A stretch of DNA of 46,631 nucleotides from a virus. The stretch spans positions 1 to 46,631 of the IMG/VR virus record IMGVR_UViG_3300045988_051605; one strand, written 5' to 3'. The position numbers and the translations under genes were made by a program. This document shows positions 1 through 46,631 of this stretch, in pieces. The notes beneath the pieces were generated by a model. The model did not search any database. It saw nothing but the letters and a program-made list of their open reading frames with translations, and was not told where the DNA came from. Within the stretch, counting starts at the first letter, position 1; the number at the start of each line of letters is the position of its first letter.

Positions 1-55
1 GCCCAACGCCCTGTCGCAGCCCTCGGCAAAGCCATCGAAACAGCAGAAGGAGACC
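1..55. repeat. Exact 55-nt duplicate of the window end (1..55 = 46577..46631); circular-contig overlap or short terminal redundancy
   Basis: gcccaacgccctgtcgcagccctcggcaaagccatcgaaacagcagaaggagacc is read at both ends. The frame of the CDS starting at 46142 is preserved across the junction (46142..46576 = 435 nt = 145 codons). Confidence 0.95.
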
Positions 56-13585: not shown

Positions 13586-14443
13586 TCACCAACCAATCTT
13601 GTTGAACGTGTTGACAGGCTTGTCATCGACCGGCGTGGCCGTCGATGCAGTAGCCTCATGAAGGTAGTGTCGCTCAGCCTCAATAGCCTCATCGACAGCC
13701 TTGCCAGCCTTCATGGCCTCACGCACACGAGTGACAGCCAGCTCAGGCAGACCGGACTCGGCGATCTTCTTGCCCGCTTCGATAGCCGAATCAACATCAA
13801 GAGATGCCTTTTCAGCTGACTCCTCCACCTTTGACTGCTGAATAGAAGCCACAGCGGAATCAAGCTTAGAACCAAGTGCTTCAATAGCAGAAGCAAAAGC
13901 ATCCTTCAGCTCATCGAACTTGGACGAAAGTTCCTTGTCCACAGTTCCCTCCTTAACGTAATTGTTAGTACGATTAGATTCTAGCAGATCAGTAATAGCA
14001 CCACCAGCACCCGGAGTAGTCACAAAGTCAACTGAACGCACTCCAGCAATAGGCGGAACAATCCCATTCTCGCTAATAGGGTCAGCGCACCAGGCATTAA
14101 TGGAAACACCAATATGCTCCCACTTATCCTTGATCAACTCATTGACCCCTGAGAACACCTTACACACAGTGTAGAGTGCACCGTCTTCCCCGACAGTGGC
14201 ATCCTCCAAGAAGACGCCAGCATAGTCACGAATAGAACGCTCCGGGCGCTCCCACTCCTCAGTTTCTGTCGGATGGTCAATGAACATCTCAGTGCCCGCC
14301 TTGAACAAAGGCGCAGACGCAGCCAGGTTCTCGGCAGTGTAGATACCACTCGACCCCTGGCCGGGTACAATAATGCGGATGCGGTACTTTCCATCGCCGA
14401 GAGAATTAGGCTCGGGCGAAAAAGACTCATGCAGCTTATGCAT
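13586..14443 (-). CDS. Capsid scaffolding protein, possibly a protease-scaffold fusion, 285 aa
   Basis: Start MHKLHESF with RBS ataggagtactg then ATG at 14443. The C-terminal half is A/E/K-rich and looks coiled-coil. Lies between portal and capsid genes. Confidence 0.55.
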   Translation of the reverse strand: MHKLHESFSPEPNSLGDGKYRIRIIVPGQGSSGIYTAENLAASAPLFKAGTEMFIDHPTETEEWERPERSIRDYAGVFLEDATVGEDGALYTVCKVFSGVNELIKDKWEHIGVSINAWCADPISENGIVPPIAGVRSVDFVTTPGAGGAITDLLESNRTNNYVKEGTVDKELSSKFDELKDAFASAIEALGSKLDSAVASIQQSKVEESAEKASLDVDSAIEAGKKIAESGLPELAVTRVREAMKAGKAVDEAIEAERHYLHEATASTATPVDDKPVNTFNKIGW

Positions 14444-15776
14444 CAGTACTCCTATTCCTATTGTCGTTTGTACCATCAGACAGGGGCCCGACACCTGTCG
14501 CACGCCCGTCCTTGGTCTCGTCATCACTCTTCGTCGTTGTCGAGTCCTCTTCCTTACCCTCATCGGGAAGTGCAGGCAAATCTTCCAACGGCAAAGACCC
14601 GGCGATCTTCAACAACTGCAGCACACCAGAACGCATCTCAACCTGGTGCAACGCGCCATTCTGATATGCAAGAGTCAAAGACTGAATACGACGATGCGTC
14701 TGATCATTATTGATCGACCCATACTCGATCTGCGCCTTAATGCCGAGAGCCTGCGCAACCTCATTGAGCATGTCGATATGCAACTGACGACGTAGCTCCA
14801 ACGCCTTGAAGGTCGGGTCTTCCAGAGCAGTCTCAGCGCCCTGTCGGCCACCGGCAGAACCATCCGTCAACAGCACCGACAGAGGGATGTCGAGCGCAGC
14901 CGACACCATAGCCGCCAAAGGCGTGCCAGCAGAGAAATCGACACCAGCACCCGCCTTCGTAATCGCCTGAATGTCTTGGCCAGCACCAATCGAGGCAGTG
15001 CCACCAACACCCATACCAGCCATGCGCGCAGTCACGGCCTTCTGCTGATTAGCGTTCACAGACTTCGCCTTGAATGCCAGACGAGACAGTGACTTCTGCA
15101 TCATACGCGCGATTTCCAGATGCTCCTTATACGCCTGAGCGTAATTCAAGGCACCCATCAGATCAGGCTTGCCATAATGCTCCGCCGACAACCTGTTCAC
15201 TGTCACATACACAGCAGTGAGACGACGGTTTACCTTATAGTCCGACGCATTGATTGTCACGCCCGTTCGATCCCACAGCATGTACCACTGAGGGTCACCA
15301 GTAGATGCCGGATTAATGAGCAGTGCAACGACATCCCCAGTGATGTCATCAGTAGCGACACCGCCAAGACGCATCAAAGGAATAGGCATGACAGTCTTAG
15401 CTGCCTTGTCGATCAAATAGATCACGCAACCATCCGTGTTGAACGCCTGCTCATCACGGACCCTCGCCTGCACGCTAAAGCACTGCTTCGCGTTCTCATC
15501 AATCACCTTACGCGCAGGCCTCGTCAAACCTTTGTAGACAACAGGGTCCCCCCACATATAGGCGTTGCGGACGACAAGCCCGCGTTTAACAATCGGATTC
15601 AGCGTGGCCAAGCGACGTGCGCGTGCTGAGTGATCCCGGATCACATCAAGAGTAATCAGGGAATCCGCACCTTCGACAGCAGACAAGGACAACCACCCAA
15701 TGTCCTCCTGTCGAAGCCTTGCAAGGGACTCAGAATAAGCCCCCAAAGCCTCGGTAAGTTTCTGCTCGTACTTCAT
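14436..15776 (-). CDS. Portal protein, 446 aa
   Basis: ORF track; directly downstream of the large terminase gene, with typical size and an acidic C-terminus. Confidence 0.8.
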   Translation of the reverse strand: MKYEQKLTEALGAYSESLARLRQEDIGWLSLSAVEGADSLITLDVIRDHSARARRLATLNPIVKRGLVVRNAYMWGDPVVYKGLTRPARKVIDENAKQCFSVQARVRDEQAFNTDGCVIYLIDKAAKTVMPIPLMRLGGVATDDITGDVVALLINPASTGDPQWYMLWDRTGVTINASDYKVNRRLTAVYVTVNRLSAEHYGKPDLMGALNYAQAYKEHLEIARMMQKSLSRLAFKAKSVNANQQKAVTARMAGMGVGGTASIGAGQDIQAITKAGAGVDFSAGTPLAAMVSAALDIPLSVLLTDGSAGGRQGAETALEDPTFKALELRRQLHIDMLNEVAQALGIKAQIEYGSINNDQTHRRIQSLTLAYQNGALHQVEMRSGVLQLLKIAGSLPLEDLPALPDEGKEEDSTTTKSDDETKDGRATGVGPLSDGTNDNRNRSTDA

Positions 15777-15788
15777 AAACTAAGCCTA

Positions 15789-17732
15789 TCACGCAATAAA
15801 GTAAGCCAATTCATCCTCAAACATAAAGTCCGAGAAGCCCTCAGCACTCAACAAATCATCAGGTGAGAAATACTGGCCTTCTGAATCACCCACCATGATG
15901 GCGTCAATATTCTGATAGGCATAAATGACAGCATCAAGAACGTCAGGAGACTTAATGCCACGCTTACGCATGTTCTCTTTCGACTCAATGAGCAGCGCTG
16001 ACCCGCGGTACTCATATTTGATCGATGCAATCTCGTTATGCAGCTCGTCGTCGTCAGGAAGATACACCCTTCCATCAGCGACAGCCTTGGCAAACTGGTC
16101 GTACATGGCTGCACGGTAGTTGTACCACTTCGTGCTATCACCTGACTTCGCGTTACCGTGAATGCCGACGACGGAAATGGTTGGCGGAACGAAGTTGTAG
16201 ATGCTGTCGAGCACTGATGCACCGACACCGATCGCGTCGATACGAATCTCGACAGCCCCCATCTCCACGGCTAGTTCGCCGACCTTGCGTGCAAGCTCAG
16301 GACCGTTCAAGCCCTGATACCGGCCATGAATCCTGATGTAGCCGCCCTGGTTCGACACGATCACGGAACTGTCGGAGCCATAGCGGGCCACATCGACACC
16401 AATCGTGATCGGCATGCCCTCATCCGGCTCGGAGGTGCCGTAGGCTTCCATGGACTGCATGACGCGCCCCATGTTGAACAGGCCGTCGTCAGACACGTCA
16501 GGGAACTCGCCAAGGACACGTGCGACAAAGCGGGGGTCATCCTCGCCCCATTCCTTCTTACGCGCCTCAACCCAGTCAACCTGCACAAGACGAGTCGCAA
16601 CTTCGACGGGTACGACTTCGCCCGTGAAGTTAGGTGTGTCGTATGCTCCGAACTGGATGATGTTCCACGAGCGTTCCTCTGGCTTCAGGCGCATCTCGCG
16701 CTTGTAGACCTCGGCCATGTAGCACGAGGGGTCATTGGGGTTAGCAATGGCCAGAATGCGCGCGTACTTGTTCGTCGTGATGGCATCGGCTGCGGTGAAG
16801 ATTTCCTTGGAGATGCCACCCGCCTCGTCCATGATGACGAGGACGTACTGGTCGTGGACACCCTGGAAGCCGGACTCGTCCTTATCGTCCGGCTTCATAC
16901 CGAAGGCGATAGGGTCTTGTCGGCCATCCATCTTCCATGTTGCGTCGGCGTTAACCTTGCCACCAATGTCAGCGACAGCCTTGACACGGGGTATTTCTTT
17001 CCACAGGACATTACGGACCTGCTTCCAGTTCGTCGCCGTCGTGACGACCGTCGTGTCATCAACAGGATGCGTGTCTACCCACCAGTTGACGAGGGTGGCA
17101 GAGAGTCGGCTGTTGTGTGTCGGAATGCACCACTGGCTCACCTGGTACAGATGGCGGGGTGAATCAACCTCGATGCACTGTGTTGGTTCTGTCGGCACAT
17201 CCTGAATGGCTACGACACACCAGTGTCCTGGCTCGTTGTTGGCCTTAGGGATGCGGTCACCGATATGGAGGTCGCGAGTCTCGACAATGATCGTGTCGTC
17301 CCAGGTGGTCTTTCCGTAGACGAGGAAGTCTGCTGAGCGGATGACTGCCCATTCATGGGCCAGTGGGCAGATAACCTCAGCACCGTCATTGAACACCACC
17401 TTAACCAGTGGAATATTCCACACAGGTGATTTAGCAACAACCTTCGTAGGCTTACCACGCTCGTCAAGGACATAGTCGCCAACGCGAAGTTCACCCATTG
17501 TCGTCCAGCCAGTAGGAGTAGGCAATGGTTCTGACACTCTGGTGGCCTTGCCTGCCCCGTTGCCCGTGACAACCAGTGTCTTCTGATGCTCGACAACAGA
17601 CTGTGAAACTTCACGCTGCTTAGACCACATGAACAGGCCGTGGTCTTCAGCCCACTTGGCAGGGTTGTTGCGCCACACTTCAAGACGCTGAGCATCAGAG
17701 AACTTGCGTGCGACAGCACCAAAAGGCAGCAT
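15789..17732 (-). CDS. terL: Terminase large subunit precursor carrying an in-frame intein (647 aa; predicted spliced product 502 aa)
   Basis: N-terminal VVTGNGAGK is interrupted; Ser208 would complete the Walker A motif. Downstream features: VLVIMDEAGG (Walker B) and IGVDVARYGSDSS (nuclease Asp). Confidence 0.9.
   Translation of the reverse strand: MLPFGAVARKFSDAQRLEVWRNNPAKWAEDHGLFMWSKQREVSQSVVEHQKTLVVTGNGAGKATRVSEPLPTPTGWTTMGELRVGDYVLDERGKPTKVVAKSPVWNIPLVKVVFNDGAEVICPLAHEWAVIRSADFLVYGKTTWDDTIIVETRDLHIGDRIPKANNEPGHWCVVAIQDVPTEPTQCIEVDSPRHLYQVSQWCIPTHNSRLSATLVNWWVDTHPVDDTTVVTTATNWKQVRNVLWKEIPRVKAVADIGGKVNADATWKMDGRQDPIAFGMKPDDKDESGFQGVHDQYVLVIMDEAGGISKEIFTAADAITTNKYARILAIANPNDPSCYMAEVYKREMRLKPEERSWNIIQFGAYDTPNFTGEVVPVEVATRLVQVDWVEARKKEWGEDDPRFVARVLGEFPDVSDDGLFNMGRVMQSMEAYGTSEPDEGMPITIGVDVARYGSDSSVIVSNQGGYIRIHGRYQGLNGPELARKVGELAVEMGAVEIRIDAIGVGASVLDSIYNFVPPTISVVGIHGNAKSGDSTKWYNYRAAMYDQFAKAVADGRVYLPDDDELHNEIASIKYEYRGSALLIESKENMRKRGIKSPDVLDAVIYAYQNIDAIMVGDSEGQYFSPDDLLSAEGFSDFMFEDELAYFIA
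17112..17546 (-). mobile_element. Class 3 mini-intein (145 aa, residues 63..207 of TerL), no homing endonuclease domain
   Basis: The insert begins with Ala after GAGK and ends THN followed by Ser. Trp128 (block B HEW), Cys186 (block F QCIEVD) and Thr205 (block G) form the WCT triplet. Removing it restores GNGAGKS. Confidence 0.8.
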
Positions 17733-18307
17733 TACTCGCCCTCAACTTCCACAGTAGCTTCAAGCAACGCCGCAGGCTTATTCACAGCCTGAGAGAACCA
17801 GTCAGCCTTGTTCGTCTCCAGGGCGCGCTTCGCCTCAGTGGACAAATGAGGATACACAAGCGCCGTGTACTCTTCGAGCACCTGGTTGGTGAACGACAGC
17901 ATGACTGCTACCTGCTTCTCCTCGATCACCCGAATCTCATGTGTCACGGTCTGTCGCTTCAGGTTGGCAACCTCAGAGATTTCACGCAAGACCGCAAGAA
18001 GACCCTGAATGTTCGCACCCCAATTGCCCTTATCATCAGCAAGACCGAACGTCTCAATCTGCGAGTAGGCCATGTCAACAAGCGCATCAAGACGGTCAAG
18101 CTGCTTGATGCGCATGTTGCGAGGTGAGAGTTCCTGTCGGCTGTCATAATATGCCTGCTCGATAATGAACAGCTCGTCCGACGTAAAGCCTGTCGCCTCA
18201 ATGATCTTGTTACGATCAGCGCCACGCTTCAGCAACGACAAGGCGGCATCTCGCCGTCCCTTCACTCCTGGGTCATCACTCGTCAAAAGCGTCCGAGATT
18301 CGCTCAT
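17732..18307 (-). CDS. terS: Terminase small subunit (by position; start at ATG 18307 uncertain), about 191 aa
   Basis: ORF track 17732..18364. Its stop overlaps the terL start (TAATG). The N-terminal segment RGADRNKIIEATGFTSDELFII looks like an HTH. Confidence 0.55.
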   Translation of the reverse strand: MSESRTLLTSDDPGVKGRRDAALSLLKRGADRNKIIEATGFTSDELFIIEQAYYDSRQELSPRNMRIKQLDRLDALVDMAYSQIETFGLADDKGNWGANIQGLLAVLREISEVANLKRQTVTHEIRVIEEKQVAVMLSFTNQVLEEYTALVYPHLSTEAKRALETNKADWFSQAVNKPAALLEATVEVEGE

Positions 18308-18419
18308 TGAACTCACGAATAACCCCCTCAATAGTCTTCTGGAACTTATGATCCAGGTATGCATACATGCCAGTCATGCCAACAATCAAGCCGACAAACA
18401 CACCAATAAGAAATGACAT
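18276..18419 (-). CDS. Small single-pass membrane protein, 47 aa
   Basis: MSFLIGVFVGLIVGMTGMYAYL... with RBS gaaggaggatta then ATG. TAATG overlap with the upstream stop. Confidence 0.6.
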   Translation of the reverse strand: MSFLIGVFVGLIVGMTGMYAYLDHKFQKTIEGVIREFNERISDAFDE

Positions 18420-19187: not shown

Positions 19188-20036
19188 TCACGGATGAACG
19201 ACACTTGGCACAGACGCCATCAAGCCCGTAGCACCCCTAGCGAGTGCCATATCAGCCTGTTGTCGAGTTGTAATGATATGGGCAATCAAAGGCTTACCAG
19301 TCGCCTTCAGAACATCCCACACACTCTGGTCAGCGTTCCATTCCATGCCCAGCACATCAAAGGATGACAGGTCCGCACCAGCAACCTCATTCGGGTACAT
19401 CATGCACATGGACTTGTACCCCTTCGCCTTCGCACGCCCAGCGACACCGCCATTTATAAACTGCTTGATCAGCACCCGATCCTTCGCATTTGGGATGGTG
19501 TCGAGATAATCGAACAGCGCATTCTCAGAGTCCATATCCCCCTGCGAACCAGTCGGCTTACTAGACGTCACCTTATGGTCGATAGCCAACACAATGTCGT
19601 CCCCAACCTGGTTGACAACATCGGTGAGCCTCATGAAGCCTCCGGATGCCTGCCGCAGGCCAGACAACTCAGACCACGGAGTATTCCAGATCTGATACTC
19701 CGTCCCTGGCACCGTACGGGTCGTCACCCAATCGTGGATCAGAACAAACTCGCCGGTGGCGCAGCGACGCACCGATAGCTCCAAGGCCTTGAAACCGGCC
19801 TTCAATGACTCTGTAAGGCCCTTTTGAGTGAACTCTGGGTACTCGGTACCGCCCAACCTGTGCGCCACGTAGAAAGGCTTAGAGGCCAGGAAACGGTCAA
19901 CGACACTGCCAGTCGGCGCAGGCACAGGCTTCGACACCGCGCGAGTGCCAGCCACCCACCTGTCGCCCCCCTGAGCACGCTCCCACATCGTGCCACGCAC
20001 GTCACCACCAGTGCGACGCAACCACAGATCAGGCAC
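19188..20036 (-). CDS. Glycerophosphodiester phosphodiesterase (GDPD) domain protein, 282 aa (GTG start uncertain)
   Basis: YVAHRLGGTEYPEFT...ALELSVRRCATGEFVLIHDW matches the GDPD HR..E..E/D..HD pattern. Overlaps the upstream gene by 8 nt. Confidence 0.75.
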   Translation of the reverse strand: MPDLWLRRTGGDVRGTMWERAQGGDRWVAGTRAVSKPVPAPTGSVVDRFLASKPFYVAHRLGGTEYPEFTQKGLTESLKAGFKALELSVRRCATGEFVLIHDWVTTRTVPGTEYQIWNTPWSELSGLRQASGGFMRLTDVVNQVGDDIVLAIDHKVTSSKPTGSQGDMDSENALFDYLDTIPNAKDRVLIKQFINGGVAGRAKAKGYKSMCMMYPNEVAGADLSSFDVLGMEWNADQSVWDVLKATGKPLIAHIITTRQQADMALARGATGLMASVPSVVHP

Positions 20037-21048
20037 CGGGGATCACCACCTGCACACCAAGACCATTCGTCGACTGAGCGTTCGGGTACGTGAACGTAGC
20101 GTCCGTGTCGCCCTTACCTTGTGCGACAGCCACCGTCTGGAAGTTAGGCCCAGACTGAGCCGCGAAGTCCACAAGCTCCCAACCATCACTCAGTGTGATC
20201 TGCCTACGGGTCTCCCCACTAAGAGAACGCTCAAAAGCGTACGCGAACACAAGACCAGTGCTCGGAGCCTTCGGAGCCGTGACCGTCGTAGTTTCCTTCG
20301 GCTCCTTCGTACGATCCTTCGTACTACCTGCCGTAGGCGTGCCACCACCGCGCACCGACAGGGCCACATATCCTGCCTCGACAGCCTTGGCAGTCTTCAA
20401 GGTGATGGACTCAGACCACGGGCCGTAGGCAATAACAGACTGCTGGGTGCCGACCCAGTAAGGTTCGACAAGCACCGTCCAGCCAGCAGGCCACGTGAAC
20501 ACCTGATCAGGCTGGGCCTTCACGTTGAGCGCGACAACCACCATGTCCCCGGCCTGTCCATCGACAGTGACCGTGCCTGTGTCGCCCGTGTACTGACCGC
20601 CCACGTGAGCAATCAGCGTCGGCGTCGTTGCAGCGTGTTCAATAAGGAAGTAGTAGGAGCCGTCAGGCAGTGCCTCAGCTTCTGCCTTGGAGGCCACCAC
20701 GTGAATCTCAGGCCGCGTCACGTTGACGTTAACGACAGGTGCAGCGGGGGGTGAAGGCACAACAGGTGTGGCCCCAACCAGCGCGCTCAGCGATACCTCC
20801 TGATCAACCGCGAGACCAATCTCCTTCTCCACGATGACGCCACCGGGGCCTGTGATACGCACGTCGTACGTGCCTGGCTCAAGGTCAATCGACACCGGCT
20901 GCATCGTGTTCTGCACAACGTAGCCACCGACAAGGATGTCAGTGACAGGATTGTTCGATCCGACGGGGTTAGGCTTAGGCGTCACGTACAGGCTGATCAT
21001 CACGTGATCACCCGCGGGTGTCTTAACGCTACCGACAATGCGAGGCAT
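20029..21048 (-). CDS. Hypothetical beta-rich protein with Pro/Thr linkers, 339 aa; possibly virion- or wall-associated
   Basis: ORF track; RBS aaggag upstream of ATG 21048. Its end overlaps the GDPD gene start, consistent with translational coupling. Confidence 0.6.
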   Translation of the reverse strand: MPRIVGSVKTPAGDHVMISLYVTPKPNPVGSNNPVTDILVGGYVVQNTMQPVSIDLEPGTYDVRITGPGGVIVEKEIGLAVDQEVSLSALVGATPVVPSPPAAPVVNVNVTRPEIHVVASKAEAEALPDGSYYFLIEHAATTPTLIAHVGGQYTGDTGTVTVDGQAGDMVVVALNVKAQPDQVFTWPAGWTVLVEPYWVGTQQSVIAYGPWSESITLKTAKAVEAGYVALSVRGGGTPTAGSTKDRTKEPKETTTVTAPKAPSTGLVFAYAFERSLSGETRRQITLSDGWELVDFAAQSGPNFQTVAVAQGKGDTDATFTYPNAQSTNGLGVQVVIPGA

Positions 21049-24428: not shown

Positions 24429-24514
24429 TGGTCCCCTTGATGAGAGTCGAACTCATACTCCTTACTGGAACCCGGGTTTGAGCCGAGCGCGTCTTCCTGT
24501 TCCGCCACAAGGGG
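24429..24514 (-). tRNA. tRNA-Leu: tRNA-Leu (anticodon CAA), 86 nt, type II with long variable arm, CCA encoded
   Basis: Hand fold: acceptor ccccttg/caagggg. D arm tggcggaacaggaagacgcg is close to E. coli tRNA-Leu. Anticodon stem ctcgg/ccggg with loop ctCAAac. 14-nt variable arm. T arm atgag-ttcgact-ctcat. Discriminator A plus CCA. Confidence 0.85.
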
Positions 24515-33606: not shown

Positions 33607-35022
33607 ATGGCATTCACCCCCCGTTCCTACCAGTCCCGAGTATTGGAAGGGCTAGCAAGCTCTAAGACTCCTTTCACGGGACTGGTAGGAGCCGGCCTCG
33701 GAACAGGCAAGACCGCTGTGTCGGTGTGGAACACCCTCAACGCCTTTGGGAGCGACATCGGGGATCAAATCATCCTTATTGTCGCTCCCGTCCGCACTGA
33801 GTCAGGATGGCGCAAGCACTGGAAAATGCTCGCAGGCCTCGACATGATCACCCTGTCGGGGAAGAAAACTAAGACAGCCCTGCAAGTATGGGACAACCTG
33901 GAAGCTCGCAAACCGGGTGTCTACTTTATTACCTGGGAGCTAATGCGCTCACGTAACAAGGAAAAGCGCTGGGACGGCAAGGCTAAGAAGATGGTCTACA
34001 AAGCCGTGAGCAAGCCATTCTACGGTGTTGAGTTCAGCATGCTCATTGCCGACGAATGGCACCGCGCGAGCAATCATTCTTCCCTGAACTTCGCTGTCGC
34101 ACGAAACATTCAAGCCAAATACCGGCTCGCCTTGAGTGCGACACCGGCAGGGAATAAGCCCTGCAACATCTGGGCAGCCCTCAAGTTCCTGTGGCCTAAC
34201 TGCTATGGCGGCTACTGGGACTTCTGTGCCAAGTTTTTCACGGAAGAGTTCAATGCCTTTAGCTCTTTCGGGAAGACTTATACGAGCGAGAAACACCCCG
34301 GCATGGTACGCCGTGGTGCGCCCTCGTACCATGAGGTGTCTCAGGCTGAGGCAAACCCGGAGCTACCCGGCGTGATTATTCACCGTGTCGAAGTGGAATT
34401 GTCTCGCACGCAACGCAAGATGTACAACGACCTGGAAGAAAAGGCGCTGACATTCCTGGGAGACAACCCACTTGCGTTGAGTATTCCCGTGGAGCTTGAC
34501 CTGAGGCTTCGACAGATGTCACTGGGAGAGCCATCATTTAACGAAGATGGGGCTGTTGATTACAAGGAAGACTGTAAGTCCTCAAAGCTAGACGCGATGA
34601 CGGACATCATTGCTGATCTTCCCGAGAATGAACCTGTCGTTGTGTGGGTACACTCCCAGAAGTTCATCAAGGCAGTGTTGCACCGTTTGCGCAAGACCGG
34701 TATCTCATGCATTGAGGTGTCTGGTAAGTCCCGTGGGGACTTCCACGCCATGATTGACGGGACAGTTCGTGTCATTGTCGCTCAGCATGAGGCTATGAGT
34801 GAGGGTGTCGATGGACTCCAAGACGTGTGTCATACGGAAATTTGGCTGAGCCAGTCGAACAGCTTGGTCATTAACGAACAGGCGACTGGACGCCTTAATC
34901 GACAGGGGCAAAAGACGGCTGTCAACCGCTTCCTGATTCAAGCTATCGACACGGTGGATGACCGTGTGCTAGGCCGCTTGCAGGAACGGTTTGACAGACT
35001 GAAGGCCAGCGGCCTAATCTAG
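33607..35022 (+). CDS. SNF2/DEAD-like superfamily 2 helicase, 471 aa
   Basis: GAGLGTGKT (motif I), LIADEWH (motif II), LSATP (motif III) and QATGRLNRQGQ (motif VI). Confidence 0.85.
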   Translation: MAFTPRSYQSRVLEGLASSKTPFTGLVGAGLGTGKTAVSVWNTLNAFGSDIGDQIILIVAPVRTESGWRKHWKMLAGLDMITLSGKKTKTALQVWDNLEARKPGVYFITWELMRSRNKEKRWDGKAKKMVYKAVSKPFYGVEFSMLIADEWHRASNHSSLNFAVARNIQAKYRLALSATPAGNKPCNIWAALKFLWPNCYGGYWDFCAKFFTEEFNAFSSFGKTYTSEKHPGMVRRGAPSYHEVSQAEANPELPGVIIHRVEVELSRTQRKMYNDLEEKALTFLGDNPLALSIPVELDLRLRQMSLGEPSFNEDGAVDYKEDCKSSKLDAMTDIIADLPENEPVVVWVHSQKFIKAVLHRLRKTGISCIEVSGKSRGDFHAMIDGTVRVIVAQHEAMSEGVDGLQDVCHTEIWLSQSNSLVINEQATGRLNRQGQKTAVNRFLIQAIDTVDDRVLGRLQERFDRLKASGLI

Positions 35023-37755: not shown

Positions 37756-38538
37756 ATGGGAAAGTTTGATAGCTTCCTCAAGAATCTTAACATCGAAGTG
37801 TCTGACCCTCGTGTCACCACCCCTAAGATCAAGATGTTGATCTATGGTATGTCCGGAACGGGAAAGACCTCACTCGCAGTCTCTGCCTCTAAGGTTGAAG
37901 AGTTAGGTCCGGTCCTATATATCGACCTTGAACGTGGCACTGCCCCCGCTGCTAAGTACGGCGACTTGGACAATATGCTCGTTGTCCAGCCCGCCTCCTA
38001 CCAGCAATTCGCGGAACTGCTGGTTAAGATCAGCAAGAATCAGGGCATGGAGTTCAAGACTATTGTCATCGATACCATTGACCGCTTGCAGGAACTCATC
38101 AAGTTCCACTTTAAGAGCATAAATCCCAAAGACAGTTTTGCCATGTGGGATGCTACGTATGAGAAGATTATTGATCTTGTCAACAAGATCAGCTTTGACC
38201 TCGGACTGAACATCATTTGCATCACGCATGAAGCACGTGAAGTGAATGACATCTCCCGCCTGTCACTGATCGGCCCGTCGTTTGAGGGCAAGCAAAGCCT
38301 AAAGAAGCTGCCGGGCATCTTCGACATCATCGGTCGTACGACGTGGGAGGATATTGGGGATGACGACAACGAAGAGCTGGTTACAGTTCTGACTGTCCGG
38401 TCTTCGTCTGAAGTGCTGGCAAAGACACGATTCGATCCGATGCCATCCATGTCTGGAAACACGACAATGGGGAAGATCATGGGTTGGGTCCATGAACATT
38501 GCGGAACCCAAGGAGTAAAGGAGAAGGATGACGACTGA
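37756..38538 (+). CDS. RecA-like AAA ATPase (AAA_24/Sak4-like), 260 aa
   Basis: Walker A GMSGTGKTS and Walker B-like TIVIDTID. RBS gaaaggagaacac then ATG. Confidence 0.7.
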   Translation: MGKFDSFLKNLNIEVSDPRVTTPKIKMLIYGMSGTGKTSLAVSASKVEELGPVLYIDLERGTAPAAKYGDLDNMLVVQPASYQQFAELLVKISKNQGMEFKTIVIDTIDRLQELIKFHFKSINPKDSFAMWDATYEKIIDLVNKISFDLGLNIICITHEAREVNDISRLSLIGPSFEGKQSLKKLPGIFDIIGRTTWEDIGDDDNEELVTVLTVRSSSEVLAKTRFDPMPSMSGNTTMGKIMGWVHEHCGTQGVKEKDDD

Positions 38539-39283: not shown

Positions 39284-41599
39284 ATGAACCTCACAGAGTT
39301 TTTCCGAGCAGTCTTCCCAGACGACGAAGGCTGGACACCTATTATTCTCAAGGGTCCGATGGGAGGCCTCACAAACTTCCACTGGTTCAACCTGCCTGCA
39401 CAACTCGACAAGATGGTGGCTTACACCAAGGCACACGCTGACCTTGATGTGTATTACTCGCCTTTCCTGTACACGAAGCCCCCGGCCCTGTCGAACACCC
39501 GCCACGCGGCCAAGGATAATGTCATCCGCGCTGCGTGCGTGTGGTCAGATGGTGATGACTGCCCTGTCGACAAGCTGAGGATTCAGCCTTCCATCCTGGT
39601 TCAGACCAGTGAGAAGCACTGGCAGGGATACTGGCTGCTCGACGACGCCGGGGACTTGTCGAACGACATGCTGGAAGCCCTCTCGCGAGCGCTCTATGAG
39701 GATCACCGCAATGACGGCATGGATCGCGGCTGGCCCCTGTCGAAGAAGCTTAGAGTCCCGTTCACGCACAACTGCAAGCGAGTGGACCCGTGGGAAATCA
39801 CACTCGCCACCAGCGATGAGAAGATCACTGCTGCTGAGTTCGCAGCCGAGTATCCCCCTGTCGAGCGAATGGGTATCGAGGAAGAAGACTTCCCCACTGA
39901 TATCCCCACCATGTACGAAGTCCTCGGCATGGTCAACCGCTCGTACATTACAGACCTGGCTACAGATGACACGTTCATTGACGAGGAAGACCGCTCCTCG
40001 AAAATGTACCACCTCGAATGTACACTCTGGGAGGAAGGCTGCTCGATTGTCGAAGCCTTCGCTGTCGTGCGCGGGACGGAATTCAACAAGTTCGCTATGG
40101 ACGGGCGCGGCGACGGCTACCTGTGGAAGCAGATCAACCGGGATCATGCCCGATGGAAGGCACAGCACAACGGGCCATCTGAGAAGGAGCTGGAAGCTGC
40201 TACCAAGGTCGGCTCCTCGTATCTTCTCAGTGAAGCACGGGAGCTAACCCTCCAGAATGTGAACTTCCTGCATGAGAACGAGCAGGAACCTATGGGTCTC
40301 TTCGTCGATCAGTTCGCCGTGTGGGCTGCAACGAAGTCAGCAATGGCACCCAAGCAATTCCACTACGCGGGCGCTCTCGCCGTCCTCTCCTCAGTGTTCG
40401 CGAAGTATGCTTTCCTGCCCATCAACGTCCAGCGAATGCCATTGAACCTATACTTCCTGGTACTGGGACGCACCACCCAGTCCCGCAAGTCAACATCACT
40501 GCGCCTCGCAGAAGGCATTATGCGGGACGTTGCTGTAGGTGTTGGTAAGGGAACAGACTCCTACATTGCACCTGAAGATTCGACAGGCGAGGCACTGTCG
40601 GCATACCTTCGCACCAAGCCGAAGGAGTCTGGCCTGTACGCAATCGACGAGGTGCAAGACTTCTTCGCACATGCGGCACAAAAGAGCAGCTATATGTCCT
40701 CTATGATGCCCTTCCTTACCAAGAGCTACGATGGATATATCCCTGCTGTCGCACGTAAGGACAAGGGCGGTAAGGTCGCCTACCAGACGGCGACACCGTA
40801 CTACATGACGTTCTACGGGACAGGTATTCTTGATCAGTCTGCGAAGCACCTGACGAAAGAACGAGTTGAGTCTGGCTTTACGCCGCGCTGCCTTGTTGTT
40901 GTCGATGAACGGGACCACTACATCACGTCTTCACAGGATGTGAAGCTGGTTGCTGTTAATCCTTCGACAGGTAAGATTGCCGACAAGCAGCGTGACTTCA
41001 TGTTGTCGAACCTCATCAAGGCAACGACTAAGTTCGACACACACTTCAGCGCACGCCAGTCCAGGTCCCTAGCACACGAGGAAGTCCGTGTCCCTGTCGA
41101 GTTTGAGCCGGGCGTGTTTGAGCGGTGGATCGAGTTCTCTGAGGAAGCCAAGGTGATGGCTGCACAACATGTCCTAAGTAGCCGTGAGCTGTTCCCTGGC
41201 ACCGAGCGTATGACGTTCTCTGTCTTGCGTATCGCTGCCCTGCTTGCCATGTACAATGGCCCTAATGCTCATGGTGGTGTCGTTGTCAAGATGCGACACA
41301 TGCTCAAGGCCATTGCCTTAGCTCCTATCTGGATGGCGTCGAACGAGGTGTTTATTCACCACGTCAAGAACTCCAACTTCAGCAACAAGGTGGATAAGTT
41401 CATCAGCTTCATTGCTCGCTCGGAGAATGGGCTTGTGCCGATCCCGAAGATTCTTCTGAAGTTCCAGTCGGAAATCAACGGAATGAAGGAGCTGAAAGAA
41501 ATCATCACATATGCTCAGGCGCGCGGTGTCGTCCAGGAAGTTATTCAAGGGAAAAAGAATAGTGATCGTTTCATCAAATACATAGGAGGCCAGGTATGA
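39284..41599 (+). CDS. Bifunctional primase-polymerase / helicase-like replication protein, 771 aa
   Basis: Start MNLTEFF with RBS cgaaaggagaggc then ATG. The N-terminal prim-pol-like region has an acidic WSDGDD motif. The central ATPase region has GRTTQSRKS and LYAIDEVQDF. Confidence 0.6.
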   Translation: MNLTEFFRAVFPDDEGWTPIILKGPMGGLTNFHWFNLPAQLDKMVAYTKAHADLDVYYSPFLYTKPPALSNTRHAAKDNVIRAACVWSDGDDCPVDKLRIQPSILVQTSEKHWQGYWLLDDAGDLSNDMLEALSRALYEDHRNDGMDRGWPLSKKLRVPFTHNCKRVDPWEITLATSDEKITAAEFAAEYPPVERMGIEEEDFPTDIPTMYEVLGMVNRSYITDLATDDTFIDEEDRSSKMYHLECTLWEEGCSIVEAFAVVRGTEFNKFAMDGRGDGYLWKQINRDHARWKAQHNGPSEKELEAATKVGSSYLLSEARELTLQNVNFLHENEQEPMGLFVDQFAVWAATKSAMAPKQFHYAGALAVLSSVFAKYAFLPINVQRMPLNLYFLVLGRTTQSRKSTSLRLAEGIMRDVAVGVGKGTDSYIAPEDSTGEALSAYLRTKPKESGLYAIDEVQDFFAHAAQKSSYMSSMMPFLTKSYDGYIPAVARKDKGGKVAYQTATPYYMTFYGTGILDQSAKHLTKERVESGFTPRCLVVVDERDHYITSSQDVKLVAVNPSTGKIADKQRDFMLSNLIKATTKFDTHFSARQSRSLAHEEVRVPVEFEPGVFERWIEFSEEAKVMAAQHVLSSRELFPGTERMTFSVLRIAALLAMYNGPNAHGGVVVKMRHMLKAIALAPIWMASNEVFIHHVKNSNFSNKVDKFISFIARSENGLVPIPKILLKFQSEINGMKELKEIITYAQARGVVQEVIQGKKNSDRFIKYIGGQV

Positions 41600-43653
41600 A
41601 GATTCTGACTAACAGCGTAGACAAGCTGCCTATGCTTGTCACAGTTCTGCTAAAGAGGGCTAGGGGCGTCTCAGGCCTTCCTGCTGGCGCACCTATCGAA
41701 GTCGTTGATGACCCACAGGCCGAAGACATCAGGGTCACACTCGGCACTGTGAAGGGCTATAAGGGCGACGCGTACAAGACGCTCTCGCCTAAGCAGATCG
41801 TCAGCAACCCGCAAGCGATCCTGTTCCTTGCTCAGGCGCTTCAGTATGGTTACCTTGGGCCTGTTGATCCTGGCCTGGAACTCGGTAAGGATTGGGTGAT
41901 CTGGGAGGGGCAGCACATCTCCTTCAAGAAGGGGAGCGTCATTGCCCTCGACATCGAGTCCTCCGGTGACATCGACAACGACACGTTCGCGGCTGGTCGC
42001 ATCCTGTCGATTGCCTTGTGGAATGGCAAGTTCGGTGTGGTGATCCCCGAGGAGCTTGCCGAGACTCCCGAGTCTGCTGAGCTGATTGAGCGCCTGTGCC
42101 GAGACTGCATTGTCGTCTGCCATAATGGCACGTTCGACATGCCGTACCTGTCGAAGCGGCTTGGCATCAATGTGTACCACCATGAGGACACGCTGCTGAT
42201 GCACTTCGTGCTCGACAACCTAGCAGGTGAGCATGGCTTGAAGCCTCTGGCTCGTCGCTGGTTGCGTGCTGCTGACTGGGATTCTGATGCAAAGTCGTAC
42301 CTAAAGCGTGGAGCATACTTTGAGAACATACCCAGGGAAAAGCTCTATGAGTACAACCTGATGGACACCGTATACACATACAAGCTGTATGAGTATTTCC
42401 TGCCATTACTGAAGAGCAGCGGGAAGTACAAGTACTACCATTACCGTATGCAGGTCACGAAGGTTTTGATCGACGTGCAGTTGAATGGTGTGGCTGTGTC
42501 GCTTGGTGCTCTTGATGAGCTGGAAGAGAAGTATAAGCGTCAGTGTGACGAGTACCTGGCAGTGTTGCATAGTATTGCGGGTGGGGAGTTTAATCCTCAG
42601 TCGCCTAAGCAGATCAAGGATTACTTCAACTCCAGGGGTGTGTCGTCTCCGTCGTTCGATTCGGATCACCTGAAGAAGCTGCGACGCGAAGGCAAGGAGA
42701 CAGGGTTCATCGACGCTCTGCTTGCTTACCGTTATGCGGCTAAGGTGATTGGTTCGTACATTACGAACGTACGCCGTAAGGTCGGTAAAGATGGTCGTAT
42801 TCATCCGTACTACCTGCCCCACGGGGCAAAAACTGGCCGCCTGTCGGCTAAGGGGCCAGCGATTCAGACGATGGGACGCGATAGTGGTATTAAGCGTGCT
42901 CTTGTCGCTGCTCCTGGTTGCAAGATCATCTCTTGTGACTATTCTCAGGCAGAGCTTCGTACTGTCGCTGAGATCGCAAGTGATGAGGCTATGATTGCCG
43001 CGTTTCAGCCGGGTGCACCTGACTTCTTCGATGACTTGATGACGAAGATTTGGCCTGACGAGTTCCCTAATATTGAAGCGTACGAGGAGTTTAAACATGA
43101 ACATCCAAAGACTGCTAAGAACCGACGCGCACTAGTCAAGAGCGTAGTGTACGGCCTTGGGTACGGACGAGGTGTTAAAGCAATCGCAACAGCACTAGAA
43201 CAACCCATCGACAACGCACAGCACGTCGTCGATCAGTACCTGGGAGCATACCCAGGCCTACGCGACTGGCAGACACGAGTTCGACACAGCGTAGGCAGGA
43301 AAGAAGAAGACGATGAGCGCCGCACGAAGTTCGGCATGACATACAACCCACTCTTCATTGCCGACGCCAACTACGCCTCGACACAGAACGAAGCATTGGC
43401 CTTCGTGCCACAATCGACAGCCAATGATATCTGCCTTCACGCGGCTGTCGAAGTGAACAAAAAGGTAGGCCAGTACGGGGCAAAGATTGTTGGCCTCGTC
43501 CACGATGCTATCTACGTCGAATGTCCTGAAGAAAACATCAAAGAATGCGGGACCGTGATGGAACGCGAGATGTCCAAGGCAGCGACACTCGTCTTCAACC
43601 GCGTGCCCTTCGTGGCAGAAGCAGAGGTCGGCAGTAATTGGGAGGAAGTATGA
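41596..43653 (+). CDS. polA: Family A DNA polymerase with 3'-5' exonuclease domain, 685 aa
   Basis: IALDIESSGD (Exo I), DYSQAELR (motif A), KSVVYGLGYG (motif B) and VHDAIYVE (motif C). Confidence 0.9.
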   Translation: MKILTNSVDKLPMLVTVLLKRARGVSGLPAGAPIEVVDDPQAEDIRVTLGTVKGYKGDAYKTLSPKQIVSNPQAILFLAQALQYGYLGPVDPGLELGKDWVIWEGQHISFKKGSVIALDIESSGDIDNDTFAAGRILSIALWNGKFGVVIPEELAETPESAELIERLCRDCIVVCHNGTFDMPYLSKRLGINVYHHEDTLLMHFVLDNLAGEHGLKPLARRWLRAADWDSDAKSYLKRGAYFENIPREKLYEYNLMDTVYTYKLYEYFLPLLKSSGKYKYYHYRMQVTKVLIDVQLNGVAVSLGALDELEEKYKRQCDEYLAVLHSIAGGEFNPQSPKQIKDYFNSRGVSSPSFDSDHLKKLRREGKETGFIDALLAYRYAAKVIGSYITNVRRKVGKDGRIHPYYLPHGAKTGRLSAKGPAIQTMGRDSGIKRALVAAPGCKIISCDYSQAELRTVAEIASDEAMIAAFQPGAPDFFDDLMTKIWPDEFPNIEAYEEFKHEHPKTAKNRRALVKSVVYGLGYGRGVKAIATALEQPIDNAQHVVDQYLGAYPGLRDWQTRVRHSVGRKEEDDERRTKFGMTYNPLFIADANYASTQNEALAFVPQSTANDICLHAAVEVNKKVGQYGAKIVGLVHDAIYVECPEENIKECGTVMEREMSKAATLVFNRVPFVAEAEVGSNWEEV

Positions 43654-46142: not shown

Positions 46143-46631
46143 TGAACGACATCACCATCTTCAACCACCTCGGCAACGACATCCGCGTCATGACAGACGA
46201 ACAAGGCGAACCACTCTTCGTCCTCAAAGACGTGTGTAATGCTCTTGGAATCACCAACACTAGGAATGTTTCCGCCCGCCTCGATGAAGACATGAAGGGT
46301 GTCCGCCCGGTGGACACCCTTGGAGGCACGCAACAGCTTACGGTCATCAATGAGGTGGGCCTCTATGAAGTCATCATTCGATCTGATAAGCCTGAGGCTA
46401 CACAGTTCCGTCGTTGGGTCACCAGCGAGGTCCTCCCCTCAATCCGCAAACACGGAATGTACGCTACACCAGCCACCATCGAAGACATGATCGCCAACCC
46501 CGACATGGCAATCAAACTCCTCACAACCCTCAAGGAAGAACGAGCAGCACGCGCCAAAGCCGAAGCAGAAATCGAAGCCCAACGCCCTGTCGCAGCCCTC
46601 GGCAAAGCCATCGAAACAGCAGAAGGAGACC
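46142..46631 (+). CDS. ant: Antirepressor, N-terminal BRO-N domain part; CDS runs off the window and continues at 1..309 across the circular junction
   Basis: Hand translation MNDITIFNHLGNDIRVMTDEQGEPLFVLKDVCNALGITNTRNVSARLDEDMKGV... (BRO-N pattern). No stop before the window end. Confidence 0.85.
   Translation, partial: MNDITIFNHLGNDIRVMTDEQGEPLFVLKDVCNALGITNTRNVSARLDEDMKGVRPVDTLGGTQQLTVINEVGLYEVIIRSDKPEATQFRRWVTSEVLPSIRKHGMYATPATIEDMIANPDMAIKLLTTLKEERAARAKAEAEIEAQRPVAALGKAIETAEGD
46577..46631. repeat. Second copy of the 55-nt terminal duplication (identical to 1..55)
   Basis: Read directly. Confidence 0.95.

What the first reader, a model, noticed from the sequence alone, without database searches (positions are those of the whole stretch)
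17112..17546. Class 3 mini-intein splitting the Walker A P-loop of the large terminase
The 647-aa TerL ORF reads VVTGNGAGK, then a 145-aa insert, then SRLSATLV. Removing residues 63..207 regenerates a perfect Walker A motif (GNGAGKS) and a normal-sized 502-aa terminase.

The insert shows the hallmarks of the class 3 intein mechanism:
- Position 1 is Ala, not Cys/Ser.
- Block A is ATRVSEPLPTPTGWTTMGELRVGDYVL.
- Block B has His126 and Trp128 (HEW, position B:12).
- Block F has Cys186 at the position normally occupied by Asp (TQCIEVDSPRH, F:4).
- Block G is PTHN followed by the +1 residue Ser208, with Thr205 at G:5.

This is the WCT triplet first defined for a mycobacteriophage DnaB intein. At 145 aa there is no room for a homing endonuclease, so the element is probably immobilised. 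Packaging ATPase activity, and therefore virion production, would depend on protein splicing.
Basis: partly seen in the sequence, partly recalled or inferred. Interest (0 to 1): 0.65.

Follow-up and report, generated by a model that had tools for sequence, protein, structure and literature searches.

The report
Class 3 mini-intein in phage terminase
The DNA-packaging motor gene of this uncultivated phage is interrupted, inside its ATP-binding loop, by a small self-splicing protein element (a class 3 mini-intein); the call is correct, but this kind of element at this kind of site is already well known.

Summary
The TerL ORF (15789..17732, minus strand, 647 aa) carries a 145-aa in-frame insert (17112..17546) between Lys62 and Ser208 of the Walker A motif.

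The insert is a real class 3 mini-intein:
- It matches the solved class 3 DnaB mini-inteins end to end (6rix/6bs8, E about 1e-22).
- An AlphaFold model (pLDDT 92) superposes on those structures (TM 0.80-0.93).
- His126/Trp128/Cys186/Thr205/His206/Asn207 align with their catalytic residues.
- Natural 502-aa intein-less alleles, up to 97% identical, read exactly GNGAGK|SRLSATLV.

The same phage population also carries 352-aa LAGLIDADG-endonuclease inteins and 219-325-aa decayed forms at the same site.

The mini-intein is under strong purifying selection (dN/dS 0.07). Its catalytic residues are invariant in 36 distinct alleles. It sits in the only terL of a complete 46.6-kb genome. Splicing is therefore almost certainly active and needed for packaging, although nothing here shows this experimentally.

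Class 3 inteins in terminase P-loops were noted when the class was defined in 2010, so this is a new member of a known kind. Interest is modest; the main value is the population series of empty, endonuclease-bearing, decayed and mini alleles.

The parts
15789..17732 (-). TerL precursor ORF. It is 647 aa and 72.2 kDa, the stop codon is included in the coordinates, and it is the only terminase large subunit in the genome.
   Evidence: define the ORF. PHROG terminase large subunit families match and Pfam Terminase_6C matches residues 444-608. A tblastn search of the window finds no second copy.
17547..17732 (-). N-extein, residues 1-62, ending in the Walker A residues G57-N-G-A-G-K62.
   Evidence: Searches give the residues. 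It aligns with SNGVGK of Arthrobacter phage Amigo TerL.
17112..17546 (-). Class 3 mini-intein, 145 aa (TerL residues 63-207), with a HINT splicing domain only.
   Evidence: phmmer gives E = 1e-22 to 6rix and 8e-22 to 6bs8. The AlphaFold model has pLDDT 92.4. The top Foldseek hits are 6rix and 6bs8, with TM 0.80 normalised to the query and up to 0.93 normalised to the target. dN/dS is 0.068.
17544..17546 (-). Intein residue 1, Ala63, which is not a nucleophile. This position is Ala or Asp in all 80 distinct intein alleles.
17349..17357 (-). Block B His126-Glu127-Trp128 (intein H64, W66; positions B:10 and B:12).
   Evidence: It aligns with the HQW motif of MchDnaB1 and MsmDnaBi1. It is invariant in 36 mini alleles and in 15 relatives of 31-79% identity.
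17175..17177 (-). Block F Cys186 (intein C124, position F:4), the predicted initiating nucleophile.
   Evidence: It aligns with Cys124 of MchDnaB1 and Cys118 of MsmDnaBi1. It is invariant.
17109..17120 (-). Block G Thr205-His206-Asn207 followed by the +1 residue Ser208. Ser208 is both the C-extein nucleophile and the Walker A serine.
15789..17111 (-). C-extein, residues 208-647 plus the stop codon. It holds the rest of the ATPase (Walker B VLVIMDEAGG starting at precursor residue 297) and the RNaseH-like nuclease domain.
17732..18364 (-). Upstream 210-aa ORF whose stop codon overlaps the terL ATG (TAATG). By position it is a candidate small terminase, but it has no family match.
   Evidence: Searches show the overlap. 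Searches found no PHROG or Pfam hit.
14436..15776 (-). Portal protein gene, immediately downstream of terL.
   Evidence: Matches phrog_10963 at E = 2.5e-70.

Best explanation
The 435-bp insert encodes a class 3 mini-intein, that is, a HINT domain with no homing endonuclease. It splits the Walker A P-loop of the phage's only large terminase between Lys62 and Ser208.

The inferred pathway follows the homologous, experimentally studied MP-Be DnaB, MsmDnaBi1 and MchDnaB1 inteins:
1. In the 72-kDa precursor, Cys186 (F:4), activated by His126 (B:10) with Trp128 (B:12) and Thr205 (G:5), attacks the Lys62-Ala63 peptide bond. This forms a block-F branched thioester that carries the 62-residue N-extein.
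2. The N-extein is transferred to the hydroxyl of Ser208 (+1), giving the block-G branched ester.
3. Asn207 cyclises, assisted by His206, and releases the 16-kDa intein.
4. An O-to-N acyl shift creates the native Lys62-Ser208 bond. This yields a 56-kDa TerL with an intact GNGAGKS P-loop.

Because the P-loop is assembled only by splicing, ATP-driven DNA packaging should depend on splicing.

In evolutionary terms, the element is the endonuclease-less form of an intein that circulates at this one site in a population of uncultivated phages, most likely phages of human-associated Actinobacteria. That population also holds empty alleles, 352-aa LAGLIDADG-endonuclease alleles and partly decayed alleles.

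Shown here: the sequence anatomy, homology, fold, precise boundaries, selection and population structure. Inferred: the chemistry, and the dependence of packaging on splicing.
For: - **Boundaries.** Natural 502-aa alleles up to 97% identical read GNGAGK|SRLSATLV. Among 74 complete terL alleles (73 IMG/VR loci plus the window), 38 are empty, 6 carry the 145-aa intein, 4 carry 219/220-aa forms and 26 carry the 352-aa form, all at the same codon boundary. The spliced sequence aligns ungapped across the junction with Arthrobacter phage Amigo TerL (41% identity).
- **Homology.** phmmer gives E = 1e-22 and 8e-22 to the class 3 MchDnaB1 and MsmDnaBi1 mini-inteins over residues 4-145. The class 1 gp41-1 intein scores only 1e-3.
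- **Fold.** The AlphaFold model has pLDDT 92.4. Foldseek ranks 1-7 are 6rix, 6bs8 and 6riy.
- **Catalytic set.** H64, W66, C124, T143, H144 and N145 are invariant in 36 distinct mini alleles in which 76 of 145 positions vary. They are also invariant in all 80 intein alleles of every size and in 15 relatives of 31-79% identity.
- **Selection.** dN/dS is 0.068 for the mini-intein and 0.03 for the extein, at dS of about 1.
- **Genome context.** The genome is complete, as shown by a 55-nt terminal repeat, and holds a single terL.
- **No hidden endonuclease.**
- **Mechanism and class definition.** PMC2807308, PMC5222942, PMC7664689 and PMC6195587.
Against: There is no experimental evidence of splicing for this protein. 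The Pfam and NCBIfam profiles did not recognise the insert at significant scores; the best was PT-HINT at E = 0.15. Cys48, which MsmDnaBi1 needs for splicing, is Leu47 here (PMC6195587), so details of the active-site environment differ from the best-studied homologue. The dN/dS values rest on only 6 mini alleles with DNA, and synonymous sites are near saturation.
Confidence: 0.9

Rival explanations
1. The mini-intein is retained not only as a selfish relic but also because it is useful. One possible use is as a conditional switch on packaging, sensitive to redox state or metals, as shown for the homologous MsmDnaBi1 in DnaB. Another is as an allele that protects terL from cleavage by the sibling homing endonuclease during co-infection, without the cost of carrying that endonuclease.
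For: The mini-intein is old and well maintained. dS among mini alleles is about 1, dN/dS is 0.07, and the mini-specific middle segment has dN/dS 0.057. It coexists with endonuclease-bearing and empty alleles in closely related exteins. Cys122 (B:6) is invariant in addition to the catalytic Cys186. The homologous class 3 P-loop intein is reversibly inhibited by oxidation (PMC6195587). An occupied site is by definition not a target for the endonuclease.
Against: Purifying selection on a mini-intein is expected anyway, because a splicing-defective intein in an essential gene is lethal. The Cys48 partner of the MsmDnaBi1 disulfide trap is absent here (Leu47). The other two cysteines, C172 and C202, vary freely. 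No data on conditional splicing exist. Empty alleles are the commonest class, so the intein is not needed for function.
Confidence: 0.15
2. The intein splices, but not by the class 3 route. For example, Ser208 might attack the N-terminal junction directly, as in class 2 (KlbA-like) inteins.
For: Position 1 is not a nucleophile, which class 2 inteins share (PMC2807308).
Against: The full Trp/Cys/Thr signature is present and invariant. The closest solved relatives are class 3 inteins. Class 2 is known only from archaeal KlbA inteins with Cys+1, and a class 3 intein could not fall back on the class 2 route when Cys F:4 was removed (PMC5222942).
Confidence: 0.04
3. The intein is dead, or the insert is a permanent domain of a non-standard or defective terminase, as would be the case in a decaying or defective phage.
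For: Splicing has not been demonstrated. The curated Pfam and NCBIfam intein models do not score the insert above threshold.
Against: The genome is complete, has a full structural and replication gene set, and holds one terL. There are 36 distinct alleles on contigs of up to about 51 kb, with invariant catalytic residues and dN/dS 0.07. The insert splits the P-loop, which could not bind ATP unspliced. Sibling alleles that lack the insert are otherwise 97% identical.
Confidence: 0.03

Closest known systems
Mycobacterium chimaera DnaB1 (PDB 6rix/6riy) and M. smegmatis DnaBi1 (PDB 6bs8) class 3 mini-inteins
   Same: The size matches (145 and 139 aa) and both have a HINT fold with no endonuclease. 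Both have Ala1, the His/Trp of block B, Cys F:4, and Thr-His-Asn at the C-terminus with Ser+1. Both are inserted after the P-loop Lys, so the +1 Ser is the Walker A serine. Identity is 33-38%, E is about 1e-22 and TM is 0.80-0.93.
   Different: The host protein is a phage terminase, not the bacterial replicative helicase. The Cys48 that MsmDnaBi1 needs, and that forms its redox disulfide, is Leu here, while a different cysteine (C122, B:6) is invariant. The central segment (intein residues 67-116) is not alignable in sequence.
Class 3 inteins of actinobacteriophage terminases, such as Clavibacter phage CN1A TerL (annotated 'contains intein'), Streptomyces phage JustBecause TerL and the mycobacteriophage TerL1-c/d/e inteins
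   Same: The extein family and the class 3 signature are the same. CN1A and JustBecause carry the intein at the identical GK|S P-loop position. CN1A begins with Asp1, as 16 of the 36 mini alleles here do. The CN1A intein is 46% identical to this one.
   Different: Those inteins carry a homing-endonuclease domain or a remnant of one and are about 290-350 aa long. The mycobacteriophage class 3 TerL inteins sit at other sites, not in the P-loop (PMC5050341). A 2025 survey of PhagesDB found class 3 inteins only in the range 225-359 aa (bioRxiv 10.1101/2025.01.02.630785), so a 145-aa class 3 mini-intein lies below the range seen in cultivated actinophages.
Mycobacteriophage Bethlehem DnaB intein (the class 3 prototype)
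   Same: It defines the Trp B:12 / Cys F:4 / Thr G:5 triplet, the non-nucleophilic residue 1 and the Ser/Thr at +1, all of which are present here (PMC2807308).
   Different: The Bethlehem intein is full length (341 aa), has an endonuclease domain and sits in a helicase.
The homing cycle of endonuclease-bearing inteins (Gogarten and Hilario 2006, PMC1654191)
   Same: Empty, endonuclease-bearing, decaying (306, 325 and 219/220 aa) and mini alleles coexist at one site in one gene pool. The endonuclease is still under purifying selection, with dN/dS 0.16.
   Different: The mini form here looks old and recombines with the endonuclease-bearing forms. It does not look like a short-lived stage on the way to loss.

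Membership tests
Intein (HINT-domain protein-splicing element) | A HINT fold with splicing blocks A, B, F and G. | tested here: met
   phmmer to the solved inteins 6rix and 6bs8 gives E of about 1e-22 over residues 4-145. The AlphaFold model has pLDDT 92.4. Forty-nine PDB matches have E <= 0.001, and all of those listed are inteins, bacterial intein-like (BIL) domains or hedgehog HINT domains. Pfam alone was not significant.
Intein (HINT-domain protein-splicing element) | An in-frame insertion at a conserved site of a host protein, where intein-less homologues are collinear across the junction. | tested here: met
   The 502-aa alleles read GNGAGK|SRLSATLV. Amigo TerL aligns ungapped across the junction.
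Intein (HINT-domain protein-splicing element) | A C-terminal Asn (G:7) preceded by His, and a Ser, Thr or Cys at +1. | tested here: met
   His206-Asn207 | Ser208. These residues are invariant in all alleles.
Intein (HINT-domain protein-splicing element) | The element excises itself and ligates the exteins (protein splicing). | not testable with these tools
   This needs expression and western blot or mass spectrometry. It is supported only indirectly, by purifying selection and by the intein's presence in the sole terL of a complete genome.
Class 3 intein | No Cys, Ser or Thr at intein position 1. | tested here: met
   The window has Ala63. Position 1 is Ala or Asp in all 80 distinct alleles.
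Class 3 intein | Trp at B:12, Cys at F:4 and Thr at G:5 (the WCT triplet). | tested here: met
   W128, C186 and T205 align with the corresponding residues of MchDnaB1 and MsmDnaBi1. They are invariant. The definition is from PMC2807308 and PMC5050341.
Class 3 intein | Membership of the monophyletic class 3 clade. | tested here: inconclusive
   No phylogeny was built. The similarity ranking is consistent with membership: class 3 structures score E = 1e-22 against 1e-3 for the best class 1 intein. All close relatives examined carry the WCT triplet after a P-loop GK.
Class 3 intein | Splicing starts at Cys F:4 and passes through a block-F branched intermediate. | not testable with these tools
   This needs a C186A mutant and trapping of the branched intermediate.
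Mini-intein | No homing-endonuclease domain. | tested here: met
   The intein is 145 aa. Alignment to the 352-aa sibling alleles shows that the whole segment with both LAGLIDADG motifs is absent. There is no Pfam endonuclease hit, and no conserved ORF in another frame or on the antisense strand.
Terminase large subunit (TerL) | An N-terminal ATPase with Walker A and Walker B motifs, a C-terminal RNaseH-like nuclease, and a gene position next to the portal gene. | tested here: met
   Walker A GNGAGKS is restored on excision and Walker B is VLVIMDEAGG. Pfam Terminase_6C matches, as do PHROG TerL families. The portal gene lies directly downstream.

The most novel reading that the evidence does not exclude
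The endonuclease-less intein is not a decaying relic. It is a stably maintained third allele in a three-way polymorphism of empty, endonuclease-bearing and mini forms. It would persist because it makes terL immune to the sibling homing endonuclease, and perhaps because the catalytic Cys186, with the invariant Cys122, makes terminase maturation sensitive to redox state or metals. Splicing would then gate DNA packaging in the oral or gut environment.
Probability: 0.12. Interest if true: 0.55.

Novelty: new member of a known kind. Interest (0 to 1): 0.3.

Why it matters
For annotation, the gene should be described as terL with a class 3 mini-intein, and its mature product as a 502-aa protein.

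Biologically, it adds an uncultivated phage lineage, apparently from human-associated samples, to the known habit of class 3 inteins of sitting in P-loops of phage ATPases. It also extends class 3 inteins in phage TerL down to a 145-aa endonuclease-free form.

The more useful result is the population series found around it. Within about 5-10% extein DNA divergence there are empty sites, active-looking LAGLIDADG inteins, internally deleted endonucleases, half-size remnants and a conserved mini-intein. There is also recombination between the forms, and a very short tract of synonymous differences tied to intein presence. This is a compact natural data set for testing homing-cycle models in phages.

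The small, naturally Cys1-free intein with Ser+1 could also be of practical interest as a splicing tool.

Tried and rejected
- **Profile scans of the insert.** Pfam and NCBIfam gave only noise-level hits (PT-HINT E = 0.15). The identification rests on PDB sequence homology and on fold.
- **Close phage relatives.** A megablast search of terL against 50,697 GenBank phage records found nothing, so there is no cultivated close relative.
- **Word-indexed protein search.** The exhaustive HMMER search was used instead.
- **Single-sequence AlphaFold.** The intein with flanks failed (pLDDT 35). The 15-sequence alignment was needed.
- **Literature.** Tori and Perler 2011 (PMC3133030) is not held in the library. 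Its content is cited only through papers that quote it.
- **Host identification.** The genome collection returned only whole-phage-length contigs that had been binned into Actinomyces, Rothia and Atopobium MAGs. These assignments conflict and look like binning artefacts, so the host remains unresolved.
- **Hidden endonuclease.** I considered an out-of-frame or antisense endonuclease inside the 'mini' intein, as recently described for actinophages. I rejected it because the alternative-frame ORFs are not conserved between alleles and have no family match.
- **Other inteins.** A profile built from the intein alignment found no second intein elsewhere in the window.
Full report
**1. The observation.** The minus strand carries a 647-aa ORF at 15789..17732. 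Translation shows ...KTLVVTGNGAGK62 | A63TRVSEPLPTPTGWTT...QWCIPTHN207 | S208RLSATLVNWW.... Residues 63-207 are encoded by 17112..17546, exactly the coordinates of the finding. Removing the insert gives a 502-aa protein with GNGAGKS. The G+C content of the insert (54.5%) is like that of the rest of the gene (55.5%), so there is no sign of recent foreign origin.

**2. The host gene.**
- The ORF is a terminase large subunit. PHROG TerL families match it, and Pfam Terminase_6C matches residues 444-608.
- The in-silico spliced protein is 41% identical to Arthrobacter phage Amigo TerL. That alignment runs ungapped through the junction (TLVVTGNGAGKSRLSATLVNWWVD against TAVKSSNGVGKSFLAALLVCWWVD) and through Walker B (VLVIMDEAGG against VLAIADEAGG).
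- The gene is flanked by a translationally coupled upstream ORF (TAATG overlap) and by the portal gene. It lies in a tailed-phage structural module that includes a tape-measure gene.
- The window begins and ends with the same 55 nt, which is the signature of a circularly assembled complete genome of 46,576 bp. It contains no second terL.

**3. What the insert is.**
- A sequence search of the PDB with the 145 residues finds, end to end, the class 3 DnaB mini-inteins of Mycobacterium chimaera (6rix/6riy, E = 1e-22) and M. smegmatis (6bs8, E = 8e-22). The best class 1 intein scores only 1e-3.
- In those alignments HEW pairs with HQW, PTQCIEVD with PVRCVEVD and IPTHN with VPTHN. Thus H126/W128/C186/T205/H206/N207 correspond to the catalytic His65/Trp/Cys124/Thr143/His/Asn145 described for MchDnaB1 (PMC7664689) and to Cys118 of MsmDnaBi1 (PMC6195587).
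- A single-sequence AlphaFold run failed. With a 15-sequence alignment of relatives of 31-79% identity the model reached pLDDT 92.4 and pTM 0.85.
- Foldseek then ranked 6rix, 6bs8 and 6riy first, with TM 0.80 normalised to the query and 0.87-0.93 normalised to the target. Other inteins, bacterial intein-like domains and the hedgehog autoprocessing domain followed.
- In the 15-sequence alignment the invariant columns include H64, W66, C124, T143, H144 and N145 in intein numbering.
- These are the features that define class 3: no nucleophile at position 1, Trp B:12, Cys F:4, Thr G:5 and Ser/Thr at +1 (PMC2807308; PMC5050341).

**4. Natural alleles fix the boundaries.** A search with the precursor found the same TerL in public metagenomes in four size classes:
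- 502 aa with no insert. P0052 is 97% identical and reads GNGAGKSRLSATLV.
- 647 aa with the 145-aa intein (35 clusters).
- 719-722 aa with a 219/220-aa intein.
- 808, 827 and 853-854 aa with inteins that match Pfam Hom_end.

The IMG/VR scan returned 78 loci. Seventy-three of them hold a complete terL, which with the window gives 74 complete alleles: 38 empty, 6 with the 145-aa intein (5 IMG/VR loci plus the window), 4 with the 219/220-aa forms and 26 with the 352-aa form. All inserts lie at the same codon boundary.

The 352-aa inteins carry two LAGLIDADG motifs (LLIDPYVLGVWLGDG and LLRGLMDTDG). The 325- and 306-aa forms have internal deletions in that domain, the 219/220-aa forms keep a remnant, and the 145-aa form keeps none. 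This is the homing cycle (PMC1654191) laid out within one gene pool. The extein's nearest neighbours are mixed between classes, and the closest extein to the window's (6% DNA divergence) carries a 352-aa intein.

**5. Is the mini-intein functional?**
- Among 36 distinct 145-aa alleles, 76 positions vary. Even so, C122, H126, E127, W128, C186, T205, H206 and N207 never change.
- Position 1 is Ala (20 alleles) or Asp (16) and is never a nucleophile.
- The other two cysteines, C172 and C202, are freely replaced.
- All 80 distinct inteins of every size keep H..W, Cys F:4 and THN.
- Nei-Gojobori estimates give dN/dS 0.068 for the mini-intein, and 0.057 for its mini-specific middle segment. The extein gives 0.03 and the endonuclease part of the long alleles 0.16, at dS of about 0.7-1.5.
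- No ORF in another frame or on the antisense strand is conserved across alleles or matches any family, so there is no hidden endonuclease.

Because this is the only terL of a complete genome, a non-splicing intein would be lethal. Active splicing is therefore the only reading that fits these data, although it has not been shown directly.

**6. Mechanism (inferred from the studied homologues).** Cys186 attacks the Lys62-Ala63 bond to form a block-F branched thioester. The N-extein then moves to Ser208. Asn207 cyclises and frees the intein, and an O-to-N shift gives Lys62-Ser208 (PMC2807308, PMC5222942, PMC7664689). Ser208 is both the splicing nucleophile and the Walker A serine, as at the DnaB site of MsmDnaBi1 (PMC6195587). 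An intein in the P-loop is expected to block ATP binding and pentamer assembly (PMC5050341), so packaging should await splicing.

One difference from MsmDnaBi1 stands out. Its Cys48, which is needed for splicing and is the partner in its redox disulfide, is Leu47 here, while a different cysteine (C122, B:6) is invariant. Whether this intein responds to redox state is unknown.

**7. Extra population signals.**
- The first 66 residues of the window's intein are 97% identical to those of an endonuclease-bearing allele (L063). N-terminal identity between mini alleles falls as low as 55%. The last 29 residues are mini-specific: at least 79% identical among mini alleles and at most 76% identical to long alleles. 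The mini form therefore has a single origin but recombines with the long forms.
- Synonymous states within about 8 nt of the insertion point are strongly tied to intein presence. The +1 Ser codon is AGY in 29 of 31 intein-bearing alleles and in 8 of 36 empty alleles (Fisher p = 2e-9). Cramer's V peaks at 0.87 at +5 and falls to a background of about 0.2 within 30 nt. This fits a very short co-conversion tract, target-site divergence in the surviving empty alleles, or both.

**8. Comparison with what is known.**
- Kelley et al. 2016 found TerL to be the commonest intein host in mycobacteriophages. They call the Lys|Thr P-loop position a 'classic' site and report class 3 TerL inteins at other sites (PMC5050341).
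- Clavibacter phage CN1A TerL (annotated 'contains intein') and Streptomyces phage JustBecause TerL carry class 3 inteins at the identical GK|S position.
- An exhaustive HMMER search finds 8,606 cluster representatives related to this intein, 2,369 of them at E <= 1e-10. The ones examined mostly sit right after a P-loop GK in terminases, DnaB and FtsK-like proteins, and several are 128-147-aa mini forms.
- The only modest novelty is size. A 2025 survey of cultivated actinophages found class 3 inteins only between 225 and 359 aa (bioRxiv 10.1101/2025.01.02.630785).

**9. Source.** The closest proteins are named only 'MAG TPA: large terminase [Caudoviricetes sp.]'. The same phage-length contigs were binned into Actinomyces, Rothia and Atopobium MAGs. 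One identical copy comes from run ERR589408. A human-associated actinobacterial host is plausible, but it is not established.

**10. Verdict.** The element is a new member of a known kind, of modest interest. The surrounding population series of alleles is the most reusable result.

Noticed in passing
window 1-55 and 46577-46631: There is an exact 55-nt direct repeat at the two ends of the window. This is the usual signature of a circularly assembled, complete genome, here of 46,576 bp.
   Followed up: partly
window 17085-17135, around the insertion point; loci L004-L081: Synonymous nucleotide states within about 8 nt of the insertion point track intein presence. Intein-bearing alleles read AGC CGA CTC, while most empty alleles read TCN CGT TTG. 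Cramer's V reaches 0.87 and falls to background within 30 nt. The pattern suggests a very short co-conversion tract or endonuclease-resistant empty sites.
   Followed up: partly
window 17349-17546 (intein residues 1-66), compared with L063, P0037 and others: The N-terminal half of the mini-intein is a mosaic. The window's copy is 97% identical to an endonuclease-bearing allele, while N-terminal identity between mini alleles falls as low as 55%. The C-terminal part is specific to the mini form. This indicates recombination between mini and full-length inteins.
   Followed up: yes
window 17544-17546 (intein residue 1): Intein position 1 is dimorphic, Ala or Asp, in both the mini and the 352-aa alleles. 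Clavibacter phage CN1A also starts with Asp. Whether Asp1 affects the splicing rate is unknown.
   Followed up: partly
window 17367-17369 (Cys122) and 17406-17408 (Leu109, intein L47): The Cys48 that M. smegmatis DnaBi1 needs for splicing and for its redox disulfide is replaced here by Leu. A different cysteine, four residues before the block B His, is invariant in all mini alleles. The two remaining cysteines, C172 and C202, vary.
   Followed up: partly
proteins P0036 (325-aa intein), P0041 (306 aa), P0046/P0048/P0060 (219-220 aa); loci L068, L070, L071, L074: Sibling phages carry intermediate intein forms at the same site. Two have internal deletions that remove or follow the first LAGLIDADG motif. 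A half-size form retains a remnant of the endonuclease domain.
   Followed up: partly
window 24429-24514 (-): A tRNA-Leu (anticodon CAA) gene is the only tRNA in the genome.
   Followed up: no
window 19188-20036 (-) and 20029-21048 (-): Two genes lie upstream of the terminase module, separated from it by two small ORFs. One is a 282-aa protein that matches a phage 'phosphodiesterase' family (phrog_17803, E = 1e-88) and, more weakly, a tail-fibre family. The other is a 339-aa protein of an unknown-function PHROG.
   Followed up: no
window 33607-35022, 37756-38538 and 41596-43653 (+): The replication module holds an SNF2-type helicase, an AAA_24 ATPase and a family A DNA polymerase. None of them carries an intein, although such ATPases are frequent hosts of class 3 inteins. 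A profile search of all six frames found only the terL intein.
   Followed up: yes
loci L082-L085: Near-identical phage-length contigs (48-52 kb) are deposited inside MAGs named Actinomyces, Rothia and Atopobium. The conflicting assignments suggest binning artefacts rather than prophages, so the host is unresolved.
   Followed up: partly
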